DNA of 16,915 nucleotides from a virus (IMGVR_UViG_2545824719_000009), one strand, 5' to 3'; shown: positions 4,659 through 14,389, counted from the first letter of the stretch. Notes: generated by a model from the letters alone, not told the origin. A program made the numbers and translations.

Positions 4659-6166
4659 TGGCAATTCTTGATGATGTGATTGGCGTTTTTTCACCAGGAT
4701 GGAAAGCGGCAAGGCTGCGTTCCCGTGCGGTGATCCAGGCTTATGAGGCCGTAAAAACGACGCGGACACACAAAGCCCGACGGGAGAACAGAACTGCCGA
4801 CCAGTTAAGCCAGTACGGGGCCGTGTCGTTACGTGAGCAGGCCCGTTACCTTGATAACAACCACGATCTGGTTATTGGTGTATTTGACAAGCTGGAAGAA
4901 CGGGTGGTGGGGAAAAACGGGATTATTGTCGAGCCACATCCGGTATTACGCAATGGGGCCATTGCCCGTGATCTGGCAGCGGAGATTCGCACCCGATGGA
5001 GTGAATGGTCTGTCAGTCCGGAGGTCACCGGGCAGTTTACCCGTCCGATGCTGGAACGTCTGATGCTGCGTACCTGGCTGCGCGATGGTGAGGTGTTTGC
5101 CCAGATGGTTTCCGGGCGCATAAACAGCCTGACGCCTTCTGCCGGTGTTCATTTCTGGCTGGAGGCGCTCGAGCCGGACTTTATTCCCATGACCAGTGAT
5201 GAGAGCAACAGGCTGAATCAGGGCGTGTTTGTTGATGACTGGGGGCGTCCCGAAAAATATCTGGTGTATAAAAGCCGTCCCGTATCCGGACGGCAGATGG
5301 AAACCAAAGAAGTGGATGCAGAGCGAATGCTGCATCTTAAATTTGTTCGCCGTCTGCACCAGATGCGCGGGACGTCTTTGTTGTCCGGTGTGCTGATCCG
5401 CCTCAGTGCCCTGAAAGATTATGAAGATTATGAGCTGACTGCAGCAAGGATCGCCGCTGCTCTGGGGATGTACATCCGCAAAGGCGACGGGCAGAGCTAT
5501 GAACCGGATGGTAATGGCAGCAAGGATAAGGAACGCGAGCTTACCATTCAGCCAGGCATTATTTACGATGATCTGAAACCCGGCGAAGAAATCGGAATGG
5601 TGAAGTCGGATCGCCCCAATCCTAACCTTGAAACTTTTCGTAATGGTCAGTTGCGTGCCGTGGCGGCGGGCAGTCGTCTGAGTTTTTCCAGTACAGCGCG
5701 CAACTATAACGGCACTTACAGCGCCCAGCGTCAGGAGCTGGTTGAATCCACTGATGGCTACCTGATCCTGCAGGACTGGTTTATTGGTGCCGTCACCCGC
5801 CCGATGTATCGTGCATGGCTGAAACAGGCTGTGGCATCCGGTGTTATCAGGCTACCCCGCGATCTTGACCGTTCTTCACTGTATACCGCGGTGTATTCCG
5901 GACCAGTGATGCCGTGGATTGACCCTGTTAAGGAGGCTGAGGCCTGGAAAATCCAGATTCGTGGTGGAGCGGCGACAGAATCAGACTGGGTACGTGCTGG
6001 TGGTCGTAATCCGGATGATGTCAAACGTCGGCGCAAGGCCGAAATTGATGAAAACCGCAAGCTGGATCTGGTATTTGATACCGATCCGGCCAGTGATAAA
6101 GGAGGCAGTAGTGCCGCAACGAAACGACAGGAGCCGCAGCACACCGACGACCAGTCCGAAGATTAA
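4658..6166 (+). CDS. B: Portal protein, lambda gpB family
   Basis: ATG at 4658 overlaps the gpW stop (TGATG). The ORF track's earlier start at 4586 would run back through the W gene. About 500 aa with a lambda gpB-like architecture, in the position immediately after W. Confidence 0.85.
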   Translation: MAILDDVIGVFSPGWKAARLRSRAVIQAYEAVKTTRTHKARRENRTADQLSQYGAVSLREQARYLDNNHDLVIGVFDKLEERVVGKNGIIVEPHPVLRNGAIARDLAAEIRTRWSEWSVSPEVTGQFTRPMLERLMLRTWLRDGEVFAQMVSGRINSLTPSAGVHFWLEALEPDFIPMTSDESNRLNQGVFVDDWGRPEKYLVYKSRPVSGRQMETKEVDAERMLHLKFVRRLHQMRGTSLLSGVLIRLSALKDYEDYELTAARIAAALGMYIRKGDGQSYEPDGNGSKDKERELTIQPGIIYDDLKPGEEIGMVKSDRPNPNLETFRNGQLRAVAAGSRLSFSSTARNYNGTYSAQRQELVESTDGYLILQDWFIGAVTRPMYRAWLKQAVASGVIRLPRDLDRSSLYTAVYSGPVMPWIDPVKEAEAWKIQIRGGAATESDWVRAGGRNPDDVKRRRKAEIDENRKLDLVFDTDPASDKGGSSAATKRQEPQHTDDQSED

Positions 6167-8138
6167 TTCCTGGTTCAGGATGCAGGCTGGTCACCAGAGT
6201 GACGCGGATATTTATATTTATGACGAGATTGGTTTCTGGGGTGTTACAGCGAAGCAGTTTATCAGTGATCTGAATGCACTGGGCGATATCACCCACATTA
6301 ATCTCCATATTAATTCACCGGGTGGCGATGTCTTTGAAGGCATCGCCATTTTTAATGCGCTGAAAACACATGGTGCGTCCATTACCGTTTATGTCGACGG
6401 TGTGGCGGCGTCAATGGCGTCGGTCATTGCGATGGTGGGAAACCCGGTCATTATGCCGGAAAACACCTTCATGATGATTCATAAACCATTTGGCTTTACG
6501 GGCGGTGATGCGGAGGACATGCGCACCTATGCCGACCTGCTCGATAAGGTTGAGGCGGTTCTGTTACCCGCTTATGCACAGAAAACCGGGAAAACCACCG
6601 ATGAAATTGCTGCCATGCTGGCGGATGAGACCTGGATGTCCGGTGCCGAATGTCTGGCACAGGGATTTGCTGATCAGGTGACGCCAGCCGTTAAGGCAAT
6701 GGCATGTATTCAGTCAAAACGTACAGAGGAATTTAAAAAGATGCCGGAATCCATTCGAAACATGATTACTCCGCCACGCAACAGTGCTCCACGCGTACAG
6801 GATGATGAACCTGCAGCCTCCCGGACGCCAGTGCAGGCAGCAGCACCCGTGGTGGATGAAAACAGTATCCGTGCGCAGGTACTGGCAGAGCAAAAAGCGC
6901 GTGTAAACGGTATTAATGATCTGTTTGCCATGTTTGGCGGGCGTTATCAGACGCTGCAGGCTCAGTGTCTTGCCGATCCTGAATGTTCGCTGGAGCAGGC
7001 CCGCGAAAAGCTGTTGAACGAGATGGGGCGCGAGTCCACGCCATCCAATAAAAATACCCCGGCTCATATTTATGCCGGTAACGGTAATTTTGTGGGGGAC
7101 GGGATCCGCCAGGCGCTGATGGCGCGTGCCGGATTTGAAAAAACCGAACGTGATAATGTCTACAACGGGATGACCCTGCGTGAATATGCCCGTATGTCAC
7201 TGACTGAACGGGGTATTGGGGTTTCCAGTTATAACCCGATGCAGATGGTCGGTGCGGCGTTCACACACAGTACGTCTGACTTCGGTAATATTCTGCTGGA
7301 TGTTGCGAACAAAGCCATTCTGCAGGGCTGGGAAGATGCCCCTGAAACCTATGAACAGTGGACGCGGAAAGGTCAGTTGTCTGATTTTAAAATTGCCCAT
7401 CGTGTGGGTATGGGGGGCTTCAGTGCTCTGCGTCAGGTGCGTGAAGGGGCGGAATATAAATACGTCACCACCGGAGATAAACAGGCCACTATTGCACTGG
7501 CGACCTATGGCGAGCTGTTCAGTATCACCCGTCAGGCCATTATCAATGATGATCTGAATATGCTGACCGATGTCCCGATGAAGCTGGGCCGTGCGGCGAA
7601 ATCCACTATTGCCGATCTGGTTTATGCCATTCTGACGTCTAACCCGAAAATCTCCACAGATAATGTAAGTCTGTTCGATAAAGCGAAACATGCAAACGTA
7701 CTGGAGAGCGCTGCAATGGACGTGGCATCGCTGGATAAAGCCCGCCAGTTGATGCGCGTTCAGAAAGAGGGGGAGCGTCATCTGAATATTCGTCCTGCGT
7801 TCGTACTGGTACCGACGGCGATGGAGTCTGTTGCTAACCAGGTCATTCGCTCCTCAAGTGTCAAGGGGGCTGACATTAACGCCGGTATTATTAACCCGGT
7901 GAAAGATTTTGCGACCGTTATTGCAGAGCCTCGTCTTGATGATAACAGCCTGACCACCTTCTACCTGGCTGCGTCAAAAGGCTCCGATACGATTGAAGTG
8001 GCTTATCTCAACGGTGTGGATACGCCATATATTGATCAGATGGAGGGCTTCAGTGTGGATGGCGTGACAACGAAAGTGCGTATTGACGCCGGTGTCGCGC
8101 CAGTTGATCACCGCGGTCTGGTGAAATGTACGGCGTAA
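6111..8138 (+). CDS. Prohead maturation protease (ClpP/S14-like) fused to scaffold-like linker and major capsid protein
   Basis: One continuous ORF. The N-terminal domain ADIYIYDEIGFWG...INSPGGDVFEGIAIFNAL...GVAASMASVIA...MMIHKP is ClpP-like with candidate Ser/His catalytic residues. A Pro/Ala/Gln-rich linker follows, then a ~330-aa domain called major capsid protein from its size and position. Start is uncertain: GTG 6111 has AAAGGAGG 5 nt upstream and overlaps the portal 3-prime end; ATG 6180 is the alternative. Confidence 0.7.
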   Translation: MPQRNDRSRSTPTTSPKINSWFRMQAGHQSDADIYIYDEIGFWGVTAKQFISDLNALGDITHINLHINSPGGDVFEGIAIFNALKTHGASITVYVDGVAASMASVIAMVGNPVIMPENTFMMIHKPFGFTGGDAEDMRTYADLLDKVEAVLLPAYAQKTGKTTDEIAAMLADETWMSGAECLAQGFADQVTPAVKAMACIQSKRTEEFKKMPESIRNMITPPRNSAPRVQDDEPAASRTPVQAAAPVVDENSIRAQVLAEQKARVNGINDLFAMFGGRYQTLQAQCLADPECSLEQAREKLLNEMGRESTPSNKNTPAHIYAGNGNFVGDGIRQALMARAGFEKTERDNVYNGMTLREYARMSLTERGIGVSSYNPMQMVGAAFTHSTSDFGNILLDVANKAILQGWEDAPETYEQWTRKGQLSDFKIAHRVGMGGFSALRQVREGAEYKYVTTGDKQATIALATYGELFSITRQAIINDDLNMLTDVPMKLGRAAKSTIADLVYAILTSNPKISTDNVSLFDKAKHANVLESAAMDVASLDKARQLMRVQKEGERHLNIRPAFVLVPTAMESVANQVIRSSSVKGADINAGIINPVKDFATVIAEPRLDDNSLTTFYLAASKGSDTIEVAYLNGVDTPYIDQMEGFSVDGVTTKVRIDAGVAPVDHRGLVKCTA

Positions 8139-8827: not shown

Positions 8828-9414
8828 ATGAAGGGGCTTGAGAATGCCATCCGTAATCTGAACAGCCTTGATACCCGTATGGTGCCACAGGCCAGCGCAT
8901 GGGCGATAAACCGTGTGGCACAGAAAGCGGTCTCGGTTGCCACCCGGCAGGTTGCCGGGAATACCGTTGCGGGAGATAACCAGGTGAAAGGGATCCCCCT
9001 GAAACTGGTACGTCAGCGTGTCCGGGTGTTTAAAGCCAGTCCGTCAGGAAAAATGACGGCCAGGATCCGCGTTAACCGGGGCAATCTGCCCACCATCAAG
9101 CTGAACACAACACGGCGGCGTGCTGGTGAAGGATTGAGAGTGGGAAAATACTTTTTCCGGGGGGCATTTATTCAGCAACTGGCGGGCAAATAGCATGTTC
9201 TGAGGCGTCTTCCAGAAACGCGTATGGTCGCTGGCATGTGATGCGGCGTATTGATGGCAAAAATCGTTACCCCATTGATGTAGTGAAAATCCCGCTGTCC
9301 GGACCGCTGACACAAGCATTTGAAGATGCCCGCGACCGCATTATTGCTGCGGAAATGCCGAAACAGCTGGGGTATGCACTGAAACAACAACTGAGGTTAT
9401 GGCTGACCCGATGA
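8828..9414 (+). pseudogene. Z: Minor tail protein gpZ homolog, interrupted by a frame break
   Basis: Frame A (8828-9193) reads MKGLENAIRNLNSL...RVNRGNLPTIKL...GAFIQQLAGK then stop, matching the lambda gpZ N-terminal two-thirds. The gpZ C-terminus GRWHVMRRIDGKNRYPIDVVKIP...LGYALKQQLR continues in a different frame from about 9226 to the stop at 9412-9414. Lambda has only KN between FIQQL and GRWHV, whereas here 44 nt intervene. Confidence 0.6.
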
Positions 9415-9823: not shown

Positions 9824-10567
9824 ATGACCACACCAAATCCACTGGCAAAAACGAAAGGTGCGGGAACGACGTTCTGGATGTACACCGGCAAGGGCGATGC
9901 GTTTGCGAACCCTTTATCGGACACTGACTGGCTGCGTCTTGCGATGGTGAAGGATCTGCAACCTGGCGAAATGACCGCTGATGCAGAAGATGACACTTAT
10001 CTCGATGATGAAGATGCAGACTGGAAAACGACAACCCAGGGGCAGAAATCCGTCGGTGATACTTCGGCGACGCTGGCCTGGCGTCCGGGTGACAGCGGGC
10101 AGAAAAAACTGGTTCAGTTGTTCGACTCCGGTGAAGTCTGCGCGTTTCGTATCAAATATCCCAACGGTACTGTTGATGTTTTCCGTGGCTGGCTGAGTTC
10201 ACTGGGTAAAACCATTGCCTCAAAAGACGTGATGACCCGCACAGTGAAAATCAGCGGTGTGGGGCGTCCGCATCTGGCAGAGGAAGGCACTGAAACAGTG
10301 AGCGTTACCGGGCTGACGGTGGCACCGGCATCTGCCAGTGTAAAAGTGGGAGCAACCACCACGCTGACCTTTACAGTAAAACCTGACGGAGCCAGTGACA
10401 AAGCGATCAGTGTGCATTCGACAGATCCACAGACTGCCACGGTGACCCTGAACGGGCTTGTGGCCACGGTGAAAGGCGTGAAGCAGGGCAGTGTCAGCAT
10501 TGTGGGCATGACTTCTGACGGCGATTTTGTGGCCGTGGCTGCGGTGGCTGTCAGCGCCGCAGGTTAA
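9824..10567 (+). CDS. V: Major tail protein gpV, with C-terminal Ig-like domain
   Basis: AGGAGG lies 5 nt upstream of ATG 9824. KGAGTTFWMYTGKGDAFANPLSDTDW...YLDDEDADW...NGTVDVFRGWLSS is highly similar to recalled lambda gpV. The C-terminal ~90 aa (VSVTGLTVAPASASVKVGATTTLTFTV...) is Ig-like, as in lambda. Confidence 0.9.
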   Translation: MTTPNPLAKTKGAGTTFWMYTGKGDAFANPLSDTDWLRLAMVKDLQPGEMTADAEDDTYLDDEDADWKTTTQGQKSVGDTSATLAWRPGDSGQKKLVQLFDSGEVCAFRIKYPNGTVDVFRGWLSSLGKTIASKDVMTRTVKISGVGRPHLAEEGTETVSVTGLTVAPASASVKVGATTTLTFTVKPDGASDKAISVHSTDPQTATVTLNGLVATVKGVKQGSVSIVGMTSDGDFVAVAAVAVSAAG

Positions 10568-10587: not shown

Positions 10588-10611
10588 GCCCCGGTTATCC
10601 GGGGCTTTTTT
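10588..10611 (+). terminator. Rho-independent terminator between V and G
   Basis: GCCCCGG-TTAT-CCGGGGC is a 7-bp GC-rich stem followed by TTTTTT, 20 nt after the V stop. Confidence 0.55.
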
Positions 10612-10624
10612 GCAGGTGGAGAAC

Positions 10625-11014
10625 ATGATGTTTCTGAAACAGGGCTCGTTTAATTATGAAAAGCAGTCCGTGGTGCTCAGTGAGCTGTCCGGGCTGCAGA
10701 GAATTGAATATCTGGCGTTTGTTCAGCAGCGAACGGCAAAGTTTGATGCCGGGGAGGGAGAACTGCCGGAGGCTGAACGACAGATTGCTTTTCTGCGGAT
10801 GGGGATGGATATCAATGCCTGGCTGGTTTCCCGCTCACTGTGGAATGCGGAACAGTCTCAGGATGTTGAGACGCTTTGCGCATCCGTTATTACAACATGG
10901 TCGTATGATGCCCTGGGTGCGGGGGCGGAGATGGTTCTGTCGCTGAGCGGTATGGGGGCCATTGATAATGCCGGGGATGATGAGCATGAGGCGCTGACGC
11001 CGGAAAAGTCCTGA
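10625..11014 (+). CDS. G: Tail assembly chaperone gpG
   Basis: MMFLKQGSFNYEKQSVVLSELSGLQRIEYLAF parallels lambda gpG MFLKTESFEHNGVTVTLSELSALQRIEHLAL. GGTGGAG lies 4 nt upstream. Confidence 0.85.
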   Translation: MMFLKQGSFNYEKQSVVLSELSGLQRIEYLAFVQQRTAKFDAGEGELPEAERQIAFLRMGMDINAWLVSRSLWNAEQSQDVETLCASVITTWSYDALGAGAEMVLSLSGMGAIDNAGDDEHEALTPEKS

Positions 11015-11352
11015 CGCGGGAAATGCAGTTTGTCATGCGGCTTGCCCGGGAGTTCCGGCGGGCAGACTGGCGGCGGATGCTGTCGGAAATGTCGGCCACT
11101 GAGCTTGGTGAGTGGGGCGATTATTTCCGGATGCAGAGCTTCAGTGATGTGTGGATGGATGCGCAGTTTGCCTCGCTGAAGGCATTGATCGTGAGAATGG
11201 TGTCCGGCAGCAGTGATGCTGCGGTGGCTGATTTCAGCCTTTTACCGGAAGAGAACGGGATACCGGAGCGAACGGACGAAGAACTGATGCATCTTGGAGA
11301 AGGTATTTCCGGAGGTGTGCGTTATGGACCAGATAGCCAACCTGGTCATTGA
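10625..11352 (+). CDS. Tail assembly chaperone gpGT, made by a -1 translational frameshift near the 3-prime end of G
   Basis: The -1 frame is open from 10990 through 11352 and overlaps the last codons of G. The only slippery-like heptamer in the overlap is GGAAAAG at 11002-11008. The T-frame ORF has no ribosome-binding site of its own, and the G/T geometry is as in lambda. Confidence 0.65.
11002..11008 (+). promoter_or_regulatory. Candidate -1 frameshift slippery heptamer (G GAA AAG)
   Basis: Located 4 nt before the G stop codon and inside the window where the -1 frame is open. Compare lambda G GGA AAG. Confidence 0.45.
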
Positions 11353-14300
11353 TTTGGGGATTGATGCGGCAGAGTTTAAAAATGAAATTCCCCGTATCAA
11401 AAACCTTCTGAATGGTGCAGCCAGCGATGCAGAACGGTCTTCTGCCCGTATGCAGCGTTTTATGGAGCGTCAGACTCAGGCCGCCCGGCAGACAACGCAG
11501 GCAGCTTCTTCGGCTGCAACAGCCGCCTCCGTCCATGCGCAGACGGTGGAGAAGAACGCACAGGCTCATGAACGCATGGCCCGCGAGGTGGAGAAAACCC
11601 GCCAGCGCATGGAGGCGCTGAGCCAGAAAATGCGCGATGAACAGGCGCAGGCCATGGCTCTGGCAGAGGCTCAGGATAAAGCGGCTGCTGCGTTTTATCG
11701 TCAGATTGACAGTGTGAAACAGGCCAGTGCGGGGCTGCAGGAATTACAGCGTATTCAGCAGCAGATCCGACAGGCCAGAAACAGTGGCGGGATTGGTCAG
11801 CAGGATTATCTGGCGCTGATTTCTGAGGTTACGGCGAAAACCCGTGTTCTTACACAGGCTGAGGAAGAGGCTACCCGACAGAAAGTGGCGTTTATCCGTC
11901 AGCTTAAAGAGCAGGCAACCCGCCAGAATCTTTCTTCTTCTGAGTTGCTTCGTGCTAAGGCTGCCCAGCTGGGGGTAAGCAGTGCTGCAGAAGTGTATAT
12001 CCGCAAAATGGAGCAGGCAGGAAAAGCAACGCATTCGCTGGGTCTGAAAAGTGCAGCGGCCCGTCAGGAGATAGGCGTTCTGATAGGTGAACTGGCCCGC
12101 GGCAATTTAGGTGCGCTGAGGGGATCCGGAATAACGCTGGCTAACCGTGCCGGGTGGATAGACACATTGATGTCACCGAAAGGCATGATGCTTGGCGGGG
12201 TTATTGGCGGTATTGCCGCGGCTGTCTATGGTCTGGGTAAAGCCTGGTATGACGGTCAGAAGGAGGGGGAAGAATTTAACCGCCAGTTGTCGCTGACGGG
12301 GCATTATGCCGGAGTCACTGCCGGGCAGCTGTGGACGCTCAGTCGTGCTATTTCCGGGAATGGTATCACGCAACATGCTGCAGCCGGTGCGCTGGCTCAG
12401 GTGGTGGGGAGTGGTGCATTTCGTGGAAACGATATCGGTATGGTGGCGAGAGCTGCCGCACAGATGGAGCGATCGGTTGGCCAGTCGGTCAGCGATACCA
12501 TAAGTCAGTTTAAGCGGCTGAAGGATGATCCTGTAAATGCCGCGAAGGCTCTGGACAATGAGCTGCATTTTCTTACTGCCACTCAGCTTGAGCAGATACG
12601 CGTCCTTGGGGAACAGGGGCGGTCCAGTGATGCGGCACGGATAGCCATGTCTGCACTGGCAGAGGAAACCGGTCGGCGTACTGCGGATATTGATAATAAC
12701 CTCAATGCGCTTGGCAGTACGCTGAAGTATCTGTCTGATTTGTGGAGTCGTTTCTGGGATGCGGCCATGAATATTGGTCGTGAAGACTCGCTGGATGAAC
12801 AGATTTCCGCTTTACAGGAGAAAGTGTCGCGGGCGAAAAGACTCCCCTGGACGGCATCATCTTCTCAGGTTGAATACGATCAGCAGCGTCTTAACGATCT
12901 TCAGGAGAAAAAACGCCAGAAGGATTTGCAGGATGCAAAAGAGCAGGCAGAGCGGAATTATCAGGAGCAACAGAAACGCCGTAATGCTGAAAATGCTGCA
13001 CTGAACCGGATGAATGAAACGGAAGCAGCACGACATCAGCGTGAAATTGCGCGTATTAATGCCATGCAGTACGCCGATCAGGCTGTCAGGGATGCGGCGA
13101 TACAACGTGAAAATGAACGTTACGAGAAAGCCCTGGCATCCGGTAAGAAAAAAACACGCGAAACCCGTAATGATGAGGCCACCCGGTTATTGCTGCAGTA
13201 CAGTCAGCAACAGGCACAGGTGGAAGGACAGATTGCTGCTGCCAGACAGTCAGCAGGCATTGCCACGGAAAGGATGACAGAAGCGCATAAACAGCTTCTG
13301 GCTCTGCAGCAGCGCATCAGCGACCTGGACGGGAAAAAACTGACGGCAGATGAAAAGAGTGTGCTGGCCCGTAAAGATGAACTGATTCAGGCACTGACGC
13401 TGCTGGATGTAAAACAGCAGGAGCTTCAGAAACAGACGGCACTCAACGAGCTGAAGAAAAAAACAATTCAGCTGACCAGTCAACTGGCTGAAGAAGAGCG
13501 CGCTCAGCGCCAGCAACATGACCTGGATATCGCCACGGTGGGTATGGGTGATCAGCAGCGACAGCGATATCAGGTACAACTGAGTCTTCGCCAGAAATAC
13601 CAGCAACAGCTGGAGCAGTTGAGGCGGGATAGTGAGCAGAAAGGGACATATAACACGGATGACTACAGAAAGGCCGAGCAGGCGCTGACGGAGAGCCTGA
13701 ACCGACAACTGAATGAGAATCGCCGTTATTGGCAACAGCTTGAAATTGCTCAGGGTGACTGGAAAAACGGAGTCCTGCGTGCACTCCAGAATGTCACTGA
13801 GAAAGCGGATAACACGGCAGAAACAGCAGAACAGGTGTTCTCGTCAGCCTTCAGTAGCATGAGTGACTGGCTGGCGACATTCTGTACTACAGGCAAACTC
13901 AATTTCAAATCCTTCACCTCTTCTGTGCTGTCAGATATGGCGAAAATCCTGGCGCAGGCAACCATGATGAAATCGATAAAAGGGATTGGCAGTGTACTGG
14001 GATTTGATCTCAGCAGCCTTTCCCTGAATGCCAATGGGGGGATTTATCAGTCTGCTGATTTGAGTCGTTACAGTGGCACGGTGGTTAACCGTCCGACGTT
14101 TTTTGCTTTTGCAAAAGGCGCGGGTGTGATGGGGGAAGCTGGACCTGAAGCCATTCTGCCATTGCGTCGTGGTGCTGACGGTAAGCTGGGGGTTGTGGCG
14201 GATATTGGGGGGTCAGGTATGGCGATGTTTTCCCCGCAGTACAACATCGAGATCAATAACGATGGCACGAACGGGCAGATAGGTCCGGCTGCCCTGAAGG

Positions 14301-14389
14301 TGGTTTATGACCTTGGGAAAAAAGCGGCAGCGGACTTTATGCAACAGCAGGCCCGTGATGGTGGTCGGTTAAGTGGAGCATATCGGTAA
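11324..14389 (+). CDS. H: Tail tape measure protein gpH
   Basis: 1021 aa, with GGAGG 8 nt upstream of the ATG. The N-terminus MDQIANLVIDLGIDAAEF matches lambda H MAEPVGDLVVDLSLDAARF, and the C-terminus INNDGTNGQIGPAALKVVYD...RDGG matches lambda H NNDGTNGQIGPAALKAVYD...RDGG. The central part is long and Gln/Ala/Arg-rich, consistent with coiled coil. Confidence 0.9.
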   Translation: MDQIANLVIDLGIDAAEFKNEIPRIKNLLNGAASDAERSSARMQRFMERQTQAARQTTQAASSAATAASVHAQTVEKNAQAHERMAREVEKTRQRMEALSQKMRDEQAQAMALAEAQDKAAAAFYRQIDSVKQASAGLQELQRIQQQIRQARNSGGIGQQDYLALISEVTAKTRVLTQAEEEATRQKVAFIRQLKEQATRQNLSSSELLRAKAAQLGVSSAAEVYIRKMEQAGKATHSLGLKSAAARQEIGVLIGELARGNLGALRGSGITLANRAGWIDTLMSPKGMMLGGVIGGIAAAVYGLGKAWYDGQKEGEEFNRQLSLTGHYAGVTAGQLWTLSRAISGNGITQHAAAGALAQVVGSGAFRGNDIGMVARAAAQMERSVGQSVSDTISQFKRLKDDPVNAAKALDNELHFLTATQLEQIRVLGEQGRSSDAARIAMSALAEETGRRTADIDNNLNALGSTLKYLSDLWSRFWDAAMNIGREDSLDEQISALQEKVSRAKRLPWTASSSQVEYDQQRLNDLQEKKRQKDLQDAKEQAERNYQEQQKRRNAENAALNRMNETEAARHQREIARINAMQYADQAVRDAAIQRENERYEKALASGKKKTRETRNDEATRLLLQYSQQQAQVEGQIAAARQSAGIATERMTEAHKQLLALQQRISDLDGKKLTADEKSVLARKDELIQALTLLDVKQQELQKQTALNELKKKTIQLTSQLAEEERAQRQQHDLDIATVGMGDQQRQRYQVQLSLRQKYQQQLEQLRRDSEQKGTYNTDDYRKAEQALTESLNRQLNENRRYWQQLEIAQGDWKNGVLRALQNVTEKADNTAETAEQVFSSAFSSMSDWLATFCTTGKLNFKSFTSSVLSDMAKILAQATMMKSIKGIGSVLGFDLSSLSLNANGGIYQSADLSRYSGTVVNRPTFFAFAKGAGVMGEAGPEAILPLRRGADGKLGVVADIGGSGMAMFSPQYNIEINNDGTNGQIGPAALKVVYDLGKKAAADFMQQQARDGGRLSGAYR

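What the first reader, a model, noticed from the sequence alone, without database searches (positions are those of the whole stretch)
10990..11352. G-T frameshift is conserved but uses a variant slippery heptamer
The T segment is open only in the -1 frame relative to G, starting at 10990 and overlapping the last eight codons of G, with no start signals of its own. That is the conserved tail-chaperone frameshift arrangement. The only slippery-like sequence in the overlap is G GAA AAG at 11002-11008, not lambda's G GGA AAG. The P-site Glu tRNA would have to re-pair on GGA with a middle-position mismatch, so efficiency may depend mostly on the A-site Lys tRNA slipping from AAG to AAA, as in dnaX.
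Basis: partly seen in the sequence, partly recalled or inferred. Interest (0 to 1): 0.45.

Follow-up and report, generated by a model that had tools for sequence, protein, structure and literature searches.

The report
Known variant G-T tail frameshift site
This is the usual lambda-type tail-chaperone G/GT -1 frameshift in an E. coli prophage, and its G GAA AAG slip site is the commonest form in this gene family and is already annotated in phages N15, phi80 and LLS, so the finding is real but ordinary.

Summary
G runs 10625-11014. The -1 frame opens at 10990, just after a TGA, and closes at 11352. G GAA AAG at 11002-11008 is the only slip-capable sequence in the 22-nt overlap. It aligns base for base with lambda's G GGA AAG.

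It is not an oddity. Of 54 distinct G/T junctions from Enterobacterales and Vibrio phages and prophages, 44 carry GGAAAAG in the same register. T identity in that set goes down to about 31-40%. GenBank already marks this heptamer as the -1 slippery site in N15, phi80 and LLS.

Comparative data support function:
- The sites that are synonymous in the G reading frame are fixed or nearly so.
- Heptamer base 1 always equals base 2 (G-G, A-A or C-C).
- The position of the least-conserved codon base switches from the G frame to the T frame at the heptamer.
- 29 of 54 junctions have no start codon for T.

One correction: T does have in-frame ATGs, at 11023 and 11035. All public annotation of this lineage calls T from 11023 as a standalone 109-aa protein. 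That ATG is not conserved and has a poor Shine-Dalgarno sequence.

The P-site "mismatch" is a G·U wobble, so tandem slippage is plausible. I found no conserved stimulatory element. Verdict: already known, low interest. Efficiency on this heptamer is not reported in the literature I could reach.

The parts
9824..10567 (+). Major tail tube gene (lambda V-like, with a C-terminal Big_2 domain), immediately upstream of G
   Evidence: Pfam Phage_TTP_12 9e-67 and Big_2 1.9e-11. The ATG at 9824 follows AAAGGAGGTG. It matches the RefSeq and mEp460 'major tail protein' CDS.
10588..10613 (+). Intrinsic terminator-like hairpin plus T-run between V and G
   Evidence: Stem of 7 G-C pairs, GCCCCGG-TTAT-CCGGGGC, followed by TTTTTT. 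Annotated as a terminator at the same place in mEp460, Ayreon and N15.
10625..11014 (+). Gene G, the tail assembly chaperone and zero-frame product (129 aa from ATG 10625; RefSeq uses ATG 10628)
   Evidence: Pfam Phage_TAC_2 2.4e-39. Translation. Shine-Dalgarno AGGTGGAG lies upstream.
11002..11008 (+). Slip site G GAA AAG. tRNA-Glu (GAA to GGA, G·U wobble in the middle) and tRNA-Lys (AAG to AAA) re-pair one base back.
   Evidence: Aligns base for base with lambda G GGA AAG. Same heptamer and register in 44 of 54 distinct junctions. Annotated as the -1 slippery sequence in N15, phi80 and LLS. It is an island of conservation amid variable flanks.
10990..11352 (+). T segment: the -1 frame ORF, open from just after TGA 10987-10989 to TGA 11350-11352. 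Only the part from 11008 onward is expected to be translated, as the C-terminal half of GT.
   Evidence: Pfam Phage_tail_T 5.1e-15. T-frame codon periodicity and residue conservation start directly after the heptamer.
10625..11352 (+). Predicted GT fusion coding region: 10625-11008 in frame 0, then 11008-11352 in frame -1. Product is 242 aa with junction ...ALTPEK-VLTREMQF...
   Evidence: Constructed. It is homologous to the joined G-T CDS of phi80 and LLS. This exact fusion is absent from the 15-billion-protein collection.
11023..11025 (+). In-frame ATG that all public annotation uses as the start of a standalone 109-aa T. It is probably just an internal Met of GT.
   Evidence: Anti-Shine-Dalgarno duplex is only -4.3 kcal/mol with 0-nt spacing, against -10.8 for H. 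The ATG is absent in relatives below about 70% identity, where it is CTG or another codon.
11324..14389 (+). Tape-measure gene (lambda H-like, 1021 aa), overlapping the end of T by 29 nt
   Evidence: Pfam TMP_2 2.3e-49, Tape_meas_lam_C 1.2e-22 and TMP_4. Strong Shine-Dalgarno GGAGGTG 6 nt upstream.

Best explanation
Genes G and T of this lambda-like E. coli prophage (mEp460/cdtI type) are expressed as in phage lambda. Most ribosomes translate G (129 aa) and stop at 11012-11014. A small fraction slip back one base on G GAA AAG (11002-11008) and continue in the T frame. This makes a 242-aa GT fusion (...ALTPEK-VLTREMQF...).

The slip is most likely a tandem one. The A-site tRNA-Lys (mnm5s2UUU) moves from AAG to the cognate AAA. 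The P-site tRNA-Glu (mnm5s2UUC) moves from GAA to GGA. It keeps G:C at position 1 and A:U at position 3, and forms a G·U wobble at position 2.

By analogy with lambda, G coats the tape-measure protein and the T domain of GT recruits the tail tube protein. No conserved mRNA stimulator is evident, so a low percent-level efficiency is expected, and that is the level this system is known to need.

Shown here: the gene anatomy, the homology, the conservation and register of the heptamer, and the frame switch in codon periodicity. Inferred: that the fusion protein is made, how the two tRNAs behave, the efficiency, and the chaperone roles.
For: 1. Anatomy. G (Phage_TAC_2) and the -1 frame T (Phage_tail_T) lie between a V-like and an H-like gene.

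2. Homologous position. The heptamer aligns base for base with lambda's proven G GGA AAG site.

3. Conservation.
- 44 of 54 distinct junctions carry GGAAAAG in the same register. They come from Escherichia, Citrobacter, Kluyvera, Kosakonia, Klebsiella, Enterobacter, Providencia, Sodalis, Rahnella and others, plus named phages. T identity goes down to about 40% among the genomic loci and about 31% among the named phages.
- The other ten carry GGGAAAG (4), AAAAAAG (2), GGCAAAA (2), GGGAAAA (1) and CCCAAAA (1) at the same place.

4. Selection at the nucleotide level (G-frame synonymous sites).
- Heptamer base 1 is G after CCG, GCG, CTG, GTG, TTG, ATG and ACG, and it always equals base 2 (54 of 54).
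- The Glu codon is always GAA (44 of 44), against 58% GAA elsewhere in the same G genes.
- The Lys codon is AAG in 50 of 54, against 45% elsewhere.

5. Frame switch. The least-conserved codon phase changes from the G-frame third position upstream (0.17 bits, against 0.66 and 0.67 for the other two phases) to the T-frame third position downstream (0.56, against 1.04 and 1.17), exactly at the heptamer.

6. Narrow overlaps. In two loci (L123 with GGGAAAG, L126 with GGAAAAG) the overlap is only 13 nt, which pins the shift to the heptamer.

7. No independent start in many relatives. 29 of 54 junctions have no ATG, GTG or TTG in the T frame before the conserved LAREF motif.

8. Existing annotation. 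N15, phi80 and LLS records mark GGAAAAG as the -1 slippery site. phi80 and LLS carry joined G-T CDSs.

9. Close relatives. All 83 and all 120 from the free-heptamer pattern scan keep GGAAAAG.
Against: - No protein-level evidence for GT in this lineage. The fusion sequence is in no database.
- In a reconstituted E. coli system G GAA AAG was used as the 'less slippery' control and gave mainly zero-frame product (Peng et al. 2019, PMC6924986).
- A_AAG tetramers without a stimulator are near background in vivo, about 0.15% against 0.11%. Even GGGAAAG gave only 0.28% without stimulators in that reporter (Sharma et al. 2014, PMC4066793).
- I found no conserved stimulator.
- This lineage has an ATG 8 nt after the G stop that could in principle give free T.
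- Gene Z in this window is split, so the prophage copy may be defective.
Confidence: 0.85

Rival explanations
1. T is made as a free 109-aa protein from ATG 11023, as every public record of this lineage annotates it. This could happen by termination-reinitiation after the G stop 8 nt upstream. On this view the heptamer is irrelevant.
For: - The ATG at 11023 is in frame and lies 8 nt after TGA 11012-11014.
- It is present in all close relatives.
- RefSeq/PGAP, mEp460 and others call T from it. The 109-aa cluster has 1148 member sequences and was seen on at least 1000 contigs.
Against: - Anti-Shine-Dalgarno pairing is only -4.3 kcal/mol with zero spacing.
- The ATG is replaced by CTG and other codons in relatives of 66% identity or less. 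34 of 54 junctions have no ATG before LAREF, and 29 of 54 have no start codon at all.
- Residues and T-frame codon periodicity are conserved upstream of the ATG, right up to the heptamer.
- This view does not explain why the heptamer's synonymous sites are fixed.
- From my own recollection of Xu, Hendrix and Duda (2013, 2014), which I could not read here: in lambda the T domain works as part of GT, tethered to the tape measure through G.
Confidence: 0.07
2. Frameshifting does occur here, but only through tRNA-Lys slipping on A_AAG. This could be A-site slippage, or P-site slippage while UCC or the nearby UGA is decoded slowly. tRNA-Glu re-pairing would contribute nothing.
For: - A_AAG is the most shift-prone tetramer in E. 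coli (Sharma et al. 2014).
- AAA[G/A] is invariant at heptamer positions 4-7 across the family.
- The GGCAAAA variants (L093, L095) cannot re-pair the P-site tRNA-Ala beyond the first base, and their stop codon follows the heptamer directly.
- Peng et al. [quoted passage not shown]
Against: - Heptamer base 1 is a G-frame third codon position with no T-frame coding role. It is nevertheless invariant, and always equal to base 2, behind seven different codons. Only P-site re-pairing explains that.
- Tetramers need a strong stimulator, and none is conserved here.
- GGA pairs with the tRNA-Glu anticodon through a G·U wobble and is not a true mismatch. The PRFect authors raise the same re-pairing (PMC10885494).
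Confidence: 0.25
3. The site is a decayed, non-functional remnant in a defective prophage. A G-to-A mutation of an ancestral GGGAAAG would have inactivated GT production.
For: - Gene Z in this window is split by indels.
- G GAA AAG is 'less slippery' in vitro.
Against: - The same heptamer is found in plaque-forming phages: mEp460, N15, phi80, LLS, HK225 and mEp043.
- It is conserved in 44 of 54 divergent junctions.
- T stays an intact ORF under purifying selection.
Confidence: 0.02
4. The shift is made on the mRNA, by RNA polymerase slipping on the A-run, and not by the ribosome.
For: The heptamer contains a run of four A.
Against: - From my own knowledge: productive transcriptional slippage in bacteria needs homopolymer runs of roughly 8 or more.
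- The run here is always exactly AAAA, flanked by a conserved GG and G. That fits codon-anticodon re-pairing rules and not a length requirement.
Confidence: 0.01

Closest known systems
Phage lambda G/GT -1 programmed frameshift (Levin, Hendrix and Casjens 1993; Xu, Hendrix and Duda 2004, 2013, 2014)
   Same: - Same gene order, V-G-T-H.
- Same Pfam families (Phage_TAC_2, Phage_tail_T).
- Slip site at the exactly homologous nucleotides.
- Same Lys AAG-to-AAA A-site slip.
- T runs into the start of H.
- No conserved mRNA stimulator found here; from memory, lambda's site needs none either.
   Different: - The heptamer is G GAA AAG, not G GGA AAG.
- The P-site tRNA is Glu, re-pairing through a G·U wobble, where lambda has Gly re-pairing through standard pairs (wobble position only).
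- G stops one codon after the heptamer, where lambda has five.
- T is 114 aa after the slip, against 144.
- This lineage has an in-frame ATG five codons after the slip.
N15 genes 14/15, phi80 G/G-T, phage LLS genes 11/12, HK225, mEp043
   Same: Identical heptamer GGAAAAG in the identical register. GenBank annotates it as the 'slippery sequence for -1 translational frameshift' or 'minus-one programmed translational frameshift site GGAAAAG'. phi80 and LLS carry joined CDSs.
   Different: - T is only about 42-45% identical to the window's T.
- G stops five codons after the heptamer (GAGCTGA).
- The mEp460/cdtI lineage of this window is annotated without the join.
E. coli dnaX A AAA AAG frameshift
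   Same: tRNA-Lys (mnm5s2UUU) slips from the weakly read AAG to AAA. The product ratio is set by slippage.
   Different: - dnaX has a fully cognate tandem site, an upstream Shine-Dalgarno-like element and a downstream hairpin. These give roughly 50% efficiency.
- Here the upstream anti-Shine-Dalgarno pairing is unremarkable (-5.8 kcal/mol; 22% of coding windows do as well).
- No downstream structure is conserved here.
Z_ZZN tetramer sites (A_AAG) in IS1/IS3 elements, and B. subtilis cdd CGA AAG (cdd recalled from memory, Mejlhede et al. 1999)
   Same: Only the A-site Lys codon allows fully cognate re-pairing. The P-site codon is not of the X_XXY form.
   Different: - Those sites depend on strong stimulators, either a pseudoknot or a Shine-Dalgarno element (Sharma et al. 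2014).
- Here none is conserved, and the P-site codon still re-pairs with two Watson-Crick pairs and one G·U pair.

Membership tests
Lambda-type G/GT tail assembly chaperone with conserved -1 frameshift (Xu et al. 2004 class) | Two overlapping ORFs located between the major tail gene and the tape-measure gene | tested here: met
   V 9824-10567, G 10625-11014, T frame 10990-11352, H 11324-14389.
Lambda-type G/GT tail assembly chaperone with conserved -1 frameshift (Xu et al. 2004 class) | Upstream ORF homologous to gpG | tested here: met
   Pfam PF06894 Phage_TAC_2, E = 2.4e-39, covering profile positions 1-123 of 126.
Lambda-type G/GT tail assembly chaperone with conserved -1 frameshift (Xu et al. 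2004 class) | Downstream ORF in the -1 frame, homologous to gpT | tested here: met
   PF06223 Phage_tail_T, E = 5.1e-15. 36-38% identical to lambda T. The frame relation is verified.
Lambda-type G/GT tail assembly chaperone with conserved -1 frameshift (Xu et al. 2004 class) | A slippery sequence inside the overlap, at the conserved position | tested here: met
   G GAA AAG at 11002-11008 aligns with lambda's G GGA AAG. It is conserved in 44 of 54 junctions.
Lambda-type G/GT tail assembly chaperone with conserved -1 frameshift (Xu et al. 2004 class) | Downstream ORF lacks its own translation start | tested here: inconclusive
   In-frame ATGs lie at 11023 and 11035 with weak Shine-Dalgarno pairing (-4.3 kcal/mol, poor spacing). 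Across the family 29 of 54 junctions have no start codon there.
Lambda-type G/GT tail assembly chaperone with conserved -1 frameshift (Xu et al. 2004 class) | Two products, G and GT, made at a high G:GT ratio and both required for tail assembly | not testable with these tools
   Needs a western blot, mass spectrometry or genetics. The GT fusion sequence is absent from the protein collection.
Canonical X_XXY_YYZ tandem-slippage heptamer | Bases 1-3 identical and bases 4-6 identical | tested here: not met
   Bases 1-3 are G, G, A. Bases 4-6 are A, A, A and comply. The departure allows G·U re-pairing at the middle position, so the site works like the canonical kind without fitting the strict pattern.
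dnaX-type stimulated A_AAG frameshift | Upstream Shine-Dalgarno-like stimulator about 10 nt 5' of the site | tested here: not met
   GAGG at 10988-10991 gives -5.8 kcal/mol, and 22% of 25-nt coding windows in this sequence do as well. It is not conserved in relatives.
dnaX-type stimulated A_AAG frameshift | Downstream stimulatory hairpin or pseudoknot 5-9 nt 3' of the site | tested here: not met
   The single-sequence fold has a z-score of -1.87, and the predicted stem abuts the heptamer. The RNAalifold consensus over 20 diverse junctions is -3.2 kcal/mol with no covariation.

The most novel reading that the evidence does not exclude
G GAA AAG is treated in ribosome biophysics as a non-slippery control. 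It may in fact be the preferred natural programmed -1 site of a large family of enterobacterial siphophage tails. It would work by near-cognate (G·U, middle position) re-pairing of tRNA-Glu.

Both slipping tRNAs carry mnm5s2U34, so the G:GT ratio would be doubly tuned by the host 2-thiouridine pathway. There may also be an unrecognised stimulator. One candidate is the conserved nascent peptide E-P-V-T-x-E-K, or the invariant GA 13-14 nt upstream of the heptamer.
Probability: 0.2. Interest if true: 0.4.

Novelty: already known. Interest (0 to 1): 0.15.

Why it matters
There are two practical points and one modest scientific one.

- **Annotation.** About a third of the complete E. coli genomes searched (1846 of 5426) carry this module. 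There T is annotated as a free 109-aa protein, when it is most likely the C-terminal half of a 242-aa GT fusion. Pipelines that look only for strict X_XXY_YYZ motifs will miss it.
- **Sequence rules.** The family gives a natural data set for a near-cognate P-site slip: GG-N-AAA-R with base 1 equal to base 2. This could refine frameshift predictors.
- **Open measurement.** The in vivo efficiency of G GAA AAG is not reported in the literature I could reach, and in vitro work classes it as poorly slippery. Measuring it in its native context would show how little slippage a tail chaperone system needs, or whether a hidden stimulator exists.

Tried and rejected
- **Downstream RNA stimulator.** The single-sequence fold is unremarkable (z = -1.87). 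The RNAalifold consensus over 20 diverse junctions is -3.2 kcal/mol with no covariation. Rejected.
- **Upstream Shine-Dalgarno-like stimulator.** GAGG lies 10 nt upstream, but the pairing is no stronger than in 22% of coding windows and is not conserved. Rejected as a general feature. 54 of the 83 close relatives have the stronger GAGGTG, so a lineage-specific boost is not excluded.
- **Heptamer count as evidence.** GGAAAAG occurs 4 times in the window against 2.5 expected. This is uninformative by itself.
- **Variation within the lineage.** All 83 close relatives, and all 120 hits of a scan that left the heptamer free, keep GGAAAAG. At 98-99% identity this adds little.
- **Literature.** Xu et al. 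2004, Xu et al. 2013, and Tsuchihashi and Brown 1992 are not held. I could not check whether GGAAAAG was measured there. Full-text searches for GGAAAAG with phage or tail terms found only Peng et al. 2019. The PRFect supplement has no matching entry.
- **Annotated GT fusion for this lineage.** An exact look-up found none.
- **Link between heptamer type and tape-measure length.** Considered and dropped. N15 (about 838 aa) and phi80 (1045 aa) both use GGAAAAG, and lambda (853 aa) uses GGGAAAG.

Full report
**What the window is.** The 16,915-bp window is the late-gene region of a lambda-like E. coli prophage.
- It carries Rz, a Rha-like regulator, the small and large terminase subunits (gpA type), a lambda-family portal, a ClpP protease-capsid fusion, a cement protein, and tail genes Z, U, V, G, T, H, M, L, K and I.
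- The G protein sequence is identical to ENE16730.1 of E. coli p0305293.14. The longest contig on record for it is 16,915 bp, so the window is probably that whole draft contig.
- The G-T region is 98-99% identical to phages mEp460, cdtI, Tritos, Ayreon and others. It occurs in 1846 of 5426 complete E. coli genomes.

**Checking the observation.**
- G reads from ATG 10625 (RefSeq uses ATG 10628) to TGA 11012-11014 and ends ...EHEALTPEKS*.
- The -1 frame has TGA at 10987-10989. It is therefore open from 10990 and closes at TGA 11350-11352.
- The overlap with G is 22 nt, which is eight G codons. The +1 frame is full of stops.
- G GAA AAG lies at 11002-11008, with GAA and AAG as zero-frame codons. 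No other X_XXY_YYZ or Z_ZZN motif lies in the overlap.
- G is Phage_TAC_2 (2.4e-39) and T is Phage_tail_T (5.1e-15). They are flanked by a lambda-type tube gene and a tape-measure gene whose ATG (11324) follows a strong GGAGGTG.
First, the T frame does have in-frame ATGs at 11023 and 11035. Second, the predicted junction is ...TPEK-VLTREMQF and not ...TPEK/GKVL....

**Comparison with lambda.** Lambda's ...tctgc GGGAAAG tgttcgacggtgagctga... and the window's ...acgcc GGAAAAG tcctgacgcggg... align without gaps. The products are ...SAGK-VFDGELSFALKLAREM... and ...TPEK-VLTREMQFVMRLAREF.... The two heptamers occupy the same seven nucleotides and differ at base 3 only.

**The heptamer is not rare.** I collected 45 loci from one-genome-per-species bacterial assemblies and a set of named phages. 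Together with the window and lambda they give 54 distinct junctions. T identity to the window is 40-100% for the genomic loci and about 31-45% for the more distant named phages.
- 44 carry GGAAAAG in the same register.
- 4 carry GGGAAAG. These are lambda, lambda-like Stx2a and PhiR12_5 phages, and an Edwardsiella prophage.
- 2 carry AAAAAAG (Stx phages).
- 2 carry GGCAAAA followed by TAG.
- 1 carries GGGAAAA followed by TAG.
- 1 carries CCCAAAA (a Vibrio phage).

The sampling patterns favoured AREF-type T proteins, so the 44 of 54 is not an unbiased census. It does show that GGAAAAG is a major form and not an aberration.

GenBank already annotates exactly this heptamer as the slip site:
- N15 (NC_001901, misc_feature 10027-10033, 'slippery sequence for -1 translational frameshift').
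- phi80 (FN582354, with a joined gpG-T CDS).
- Phage LLS (PQ299149, 'minus-one programmed translational frameshift site GGAAAAG', joined CDS).

**Evidence that the site is functional.**
1. In an ungapped comparison anchored on the heptamer, heptamer positions 1-7 form an island of conservation. In the first 48 junctions five of the seven bases are invariant (2.0 bits), while nearby G-frame third-codon positions fall to 0.08-0.18 bits.
2. The sites that are synonymous in the G frame are fixed or nearly so.
   - Base 1 is the third base of the preceding G codon. It is G behind CCG, GCG, CTG, GTG, TTG, ATG and ACG. Across all 54 junctions it always equals base 2 (51 G-G, 2 A-A, 1 C-C).
   - The Glu codon is GAA in 44 of 44, against 58% GAA elsewhere in these G genes.
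   - The Lys codon is AAG in 50 of 54, against 45% elsewhere.
   - Base 1 has no coding role in the T frame if the slip happens here. Its conservation is what P-site re-pairing predicts.
3. The least-conserved codon phase switches at the heptamer. Upstream it is the G-frame third position (mean 0.17 bits, against 0.66 and 0.67). Downstream it is the T-frame third position (0.56 against 1.04 and 1.17, then 0.75 against 1.41 and 1.59).
4. The overlap is as short as 13 nt in two loci (L123, L126), leaving room for little beyond the heptamer.
5. 29 of 54 junctions have no ATG, GTG or TTG in the T frame before the conserved LAREF motif, so T cannot start on its own there.

**The standalone-T rival.** Every public record of the mEp460 lineage annotates T from ATG 11023 as a 109-aa protein. 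That cluster has 1148 member sequences and was seen on at least 1000 contigs. The 242-aa fusion is in no database.

The ATG lies 8 nt after the G stop, so reinitiation is conceivable. Three points count against it as the main route:
- Anti-Shine-Dalgarno pairing is -4.3 kcal/mol with zero spacing, against -10.8 for H.
- The ATG is not conserved beyond close relatives. It is CTG in the 66%-identical Citrobacter locus.
- Residues between the heptamer and the ATG ([V/A]-[L/F]-x-x-E) are conserved as T-frame codons.

I rate standalone T as the main route at about 0.07. Some free T alongside GT is not excluded.

**Mechanism.** The A-site tRNA-Lys (anticodon mnm5s2UUU) moves from AAG to the cognate AAA, as in lambda and dnaX. 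The P-site tRNA-Glu (mnm5s2UUC) moves from GAA to GGA. Codon base 1 is still G:C, base 3 is still A:U, and base 2 becomes G·U. So the 'middle mismatch' is a wobble pair.
- The PRFect authors noted the same tRNA-Glu-on-GGA re-pairing for other phage motifs (PMC10885494).
- The rule that base 1 equals base 2 supports a tandem slip.
- The two GGCAAAA junctions show that the family tolerates weaker P-site re-pairing when a stop codon directly follows the heptamer.

I found no conserved stimulator:
- The window's downstream fold is unremarkable (z = -1.87), and the predicted stem abuts the heptamer.
- The consensus fold of 20 diverse junctions is -3.2 kcal/mol with no covariation.
- The upstream GAGG, 10 nt away, pairs no better than 22% of coding windows.

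Experimental benchmarks caution that efficiency may be low:
- G GAA AAG served as the 'less slippery' control in a reconstituted system and gave mainly zero-frame product (PMC6924986).
- A_AAG tetramers without a stimulator are near background. Even GGGAAAG gave 0.28% without stimulators in a lacZ reporter (PMC4066793).
- Lambda itself needs only about 4% slippage, a G:GT ratio of about 30:1 (PMC3296357; PMC5009743). A low-efficiency site therefore suits the biology.

One inference follows. Both slipping tRNAs here carry the 2-thiouridine modification that Maynard et al. showed modulates lambda's G:GT ratio. This variant may therefore be more sensitive to that host pathway.

**Verdict.** The arrangement is a member of the lambda G/GT frameshift class. 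All sequence-testable defining features are met except strict X_XXY_YYZ form and, inconclusively, the lack of a T start codon. The 'variant' heptamer is already annotated in N15, phi80 and LLS and is the prevailing form in the family.
- Novelty: already known.
- Still open: a direct measurement of efficiency on G GAA AAG in its native context, and correction of the widespread standalone-T annotation.
- Interest: 0.15.

Noticed in passing
window 8828-9414: Tail gene Z (Minor_tail_Z) is split into two ORFs in different frames: 8828-9193 (121 aa) and 9238-9414 (58 aa). Against mEp460 the middle, about 9090-9260, is diverged, with indels of -12, -18 and +38 nt and an in-frame TAG. No complete E. 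coli genome among 5426 carries this stretch at full length (best match 74% coverage at 94.6% identity). It is either a pseudogenised Z, which would make the prophage defective, or a draft-assembly error.
   Followed up: partly
window 10588-10613: An intrinsic terminator-like hairpin (7 G-C pairs, loop TTAT, then TTTTTT) sits between the major tail gene V and G. The same feature is annotated in mEp460, Ayreon and N15. It may attenuate expression of G, T and H relative to V.
   Followed up: partly
window 11023-11352, and thousands of public records: RefSeq/PGAP and most phage records annotate T of this lineage as a standalone 109-aa protein starting at ATG 11023. The joined 242-aa GT product is absent from a 15-billion-protein collection. 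This is probably a systematic annotation gap that affects about a third of the complete E. coli genomes searched.
   Followed up: yes
window 10988-10990; related loci L085-L139, 13-14 nt upstream of the heptamer: A GA dinucleotide 13-14 nt upstream of the heptamer is 96-98% conserved. It is the first two bases of a Glu codon in the G tail motif E-P-V-T-x-[E/G/K]-K. The motif is shared by family members with canonical heptamers too, so it is probably a protein-level or nascent-peptide feature and not a Shine-Dalgarno element. Its role is unknown.
   Followed up: partly
window 5919-8138: A single 739-aa ORF combines a ClpP-type prohead protease domain (residues 109-255) with a major capsid domain (residues 441-736). 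This is a protease-scaffold-capsid fusion arrangement.
   Followed up: no
close relatives L005-L084, equivalent to window 10988-10993: 54 of 83 near-identical relatives have GAGGTG where the window has GAGGCG, 10 nt upstream of the heptamer. It is not conserved outside this lineage.
   Followed up: no
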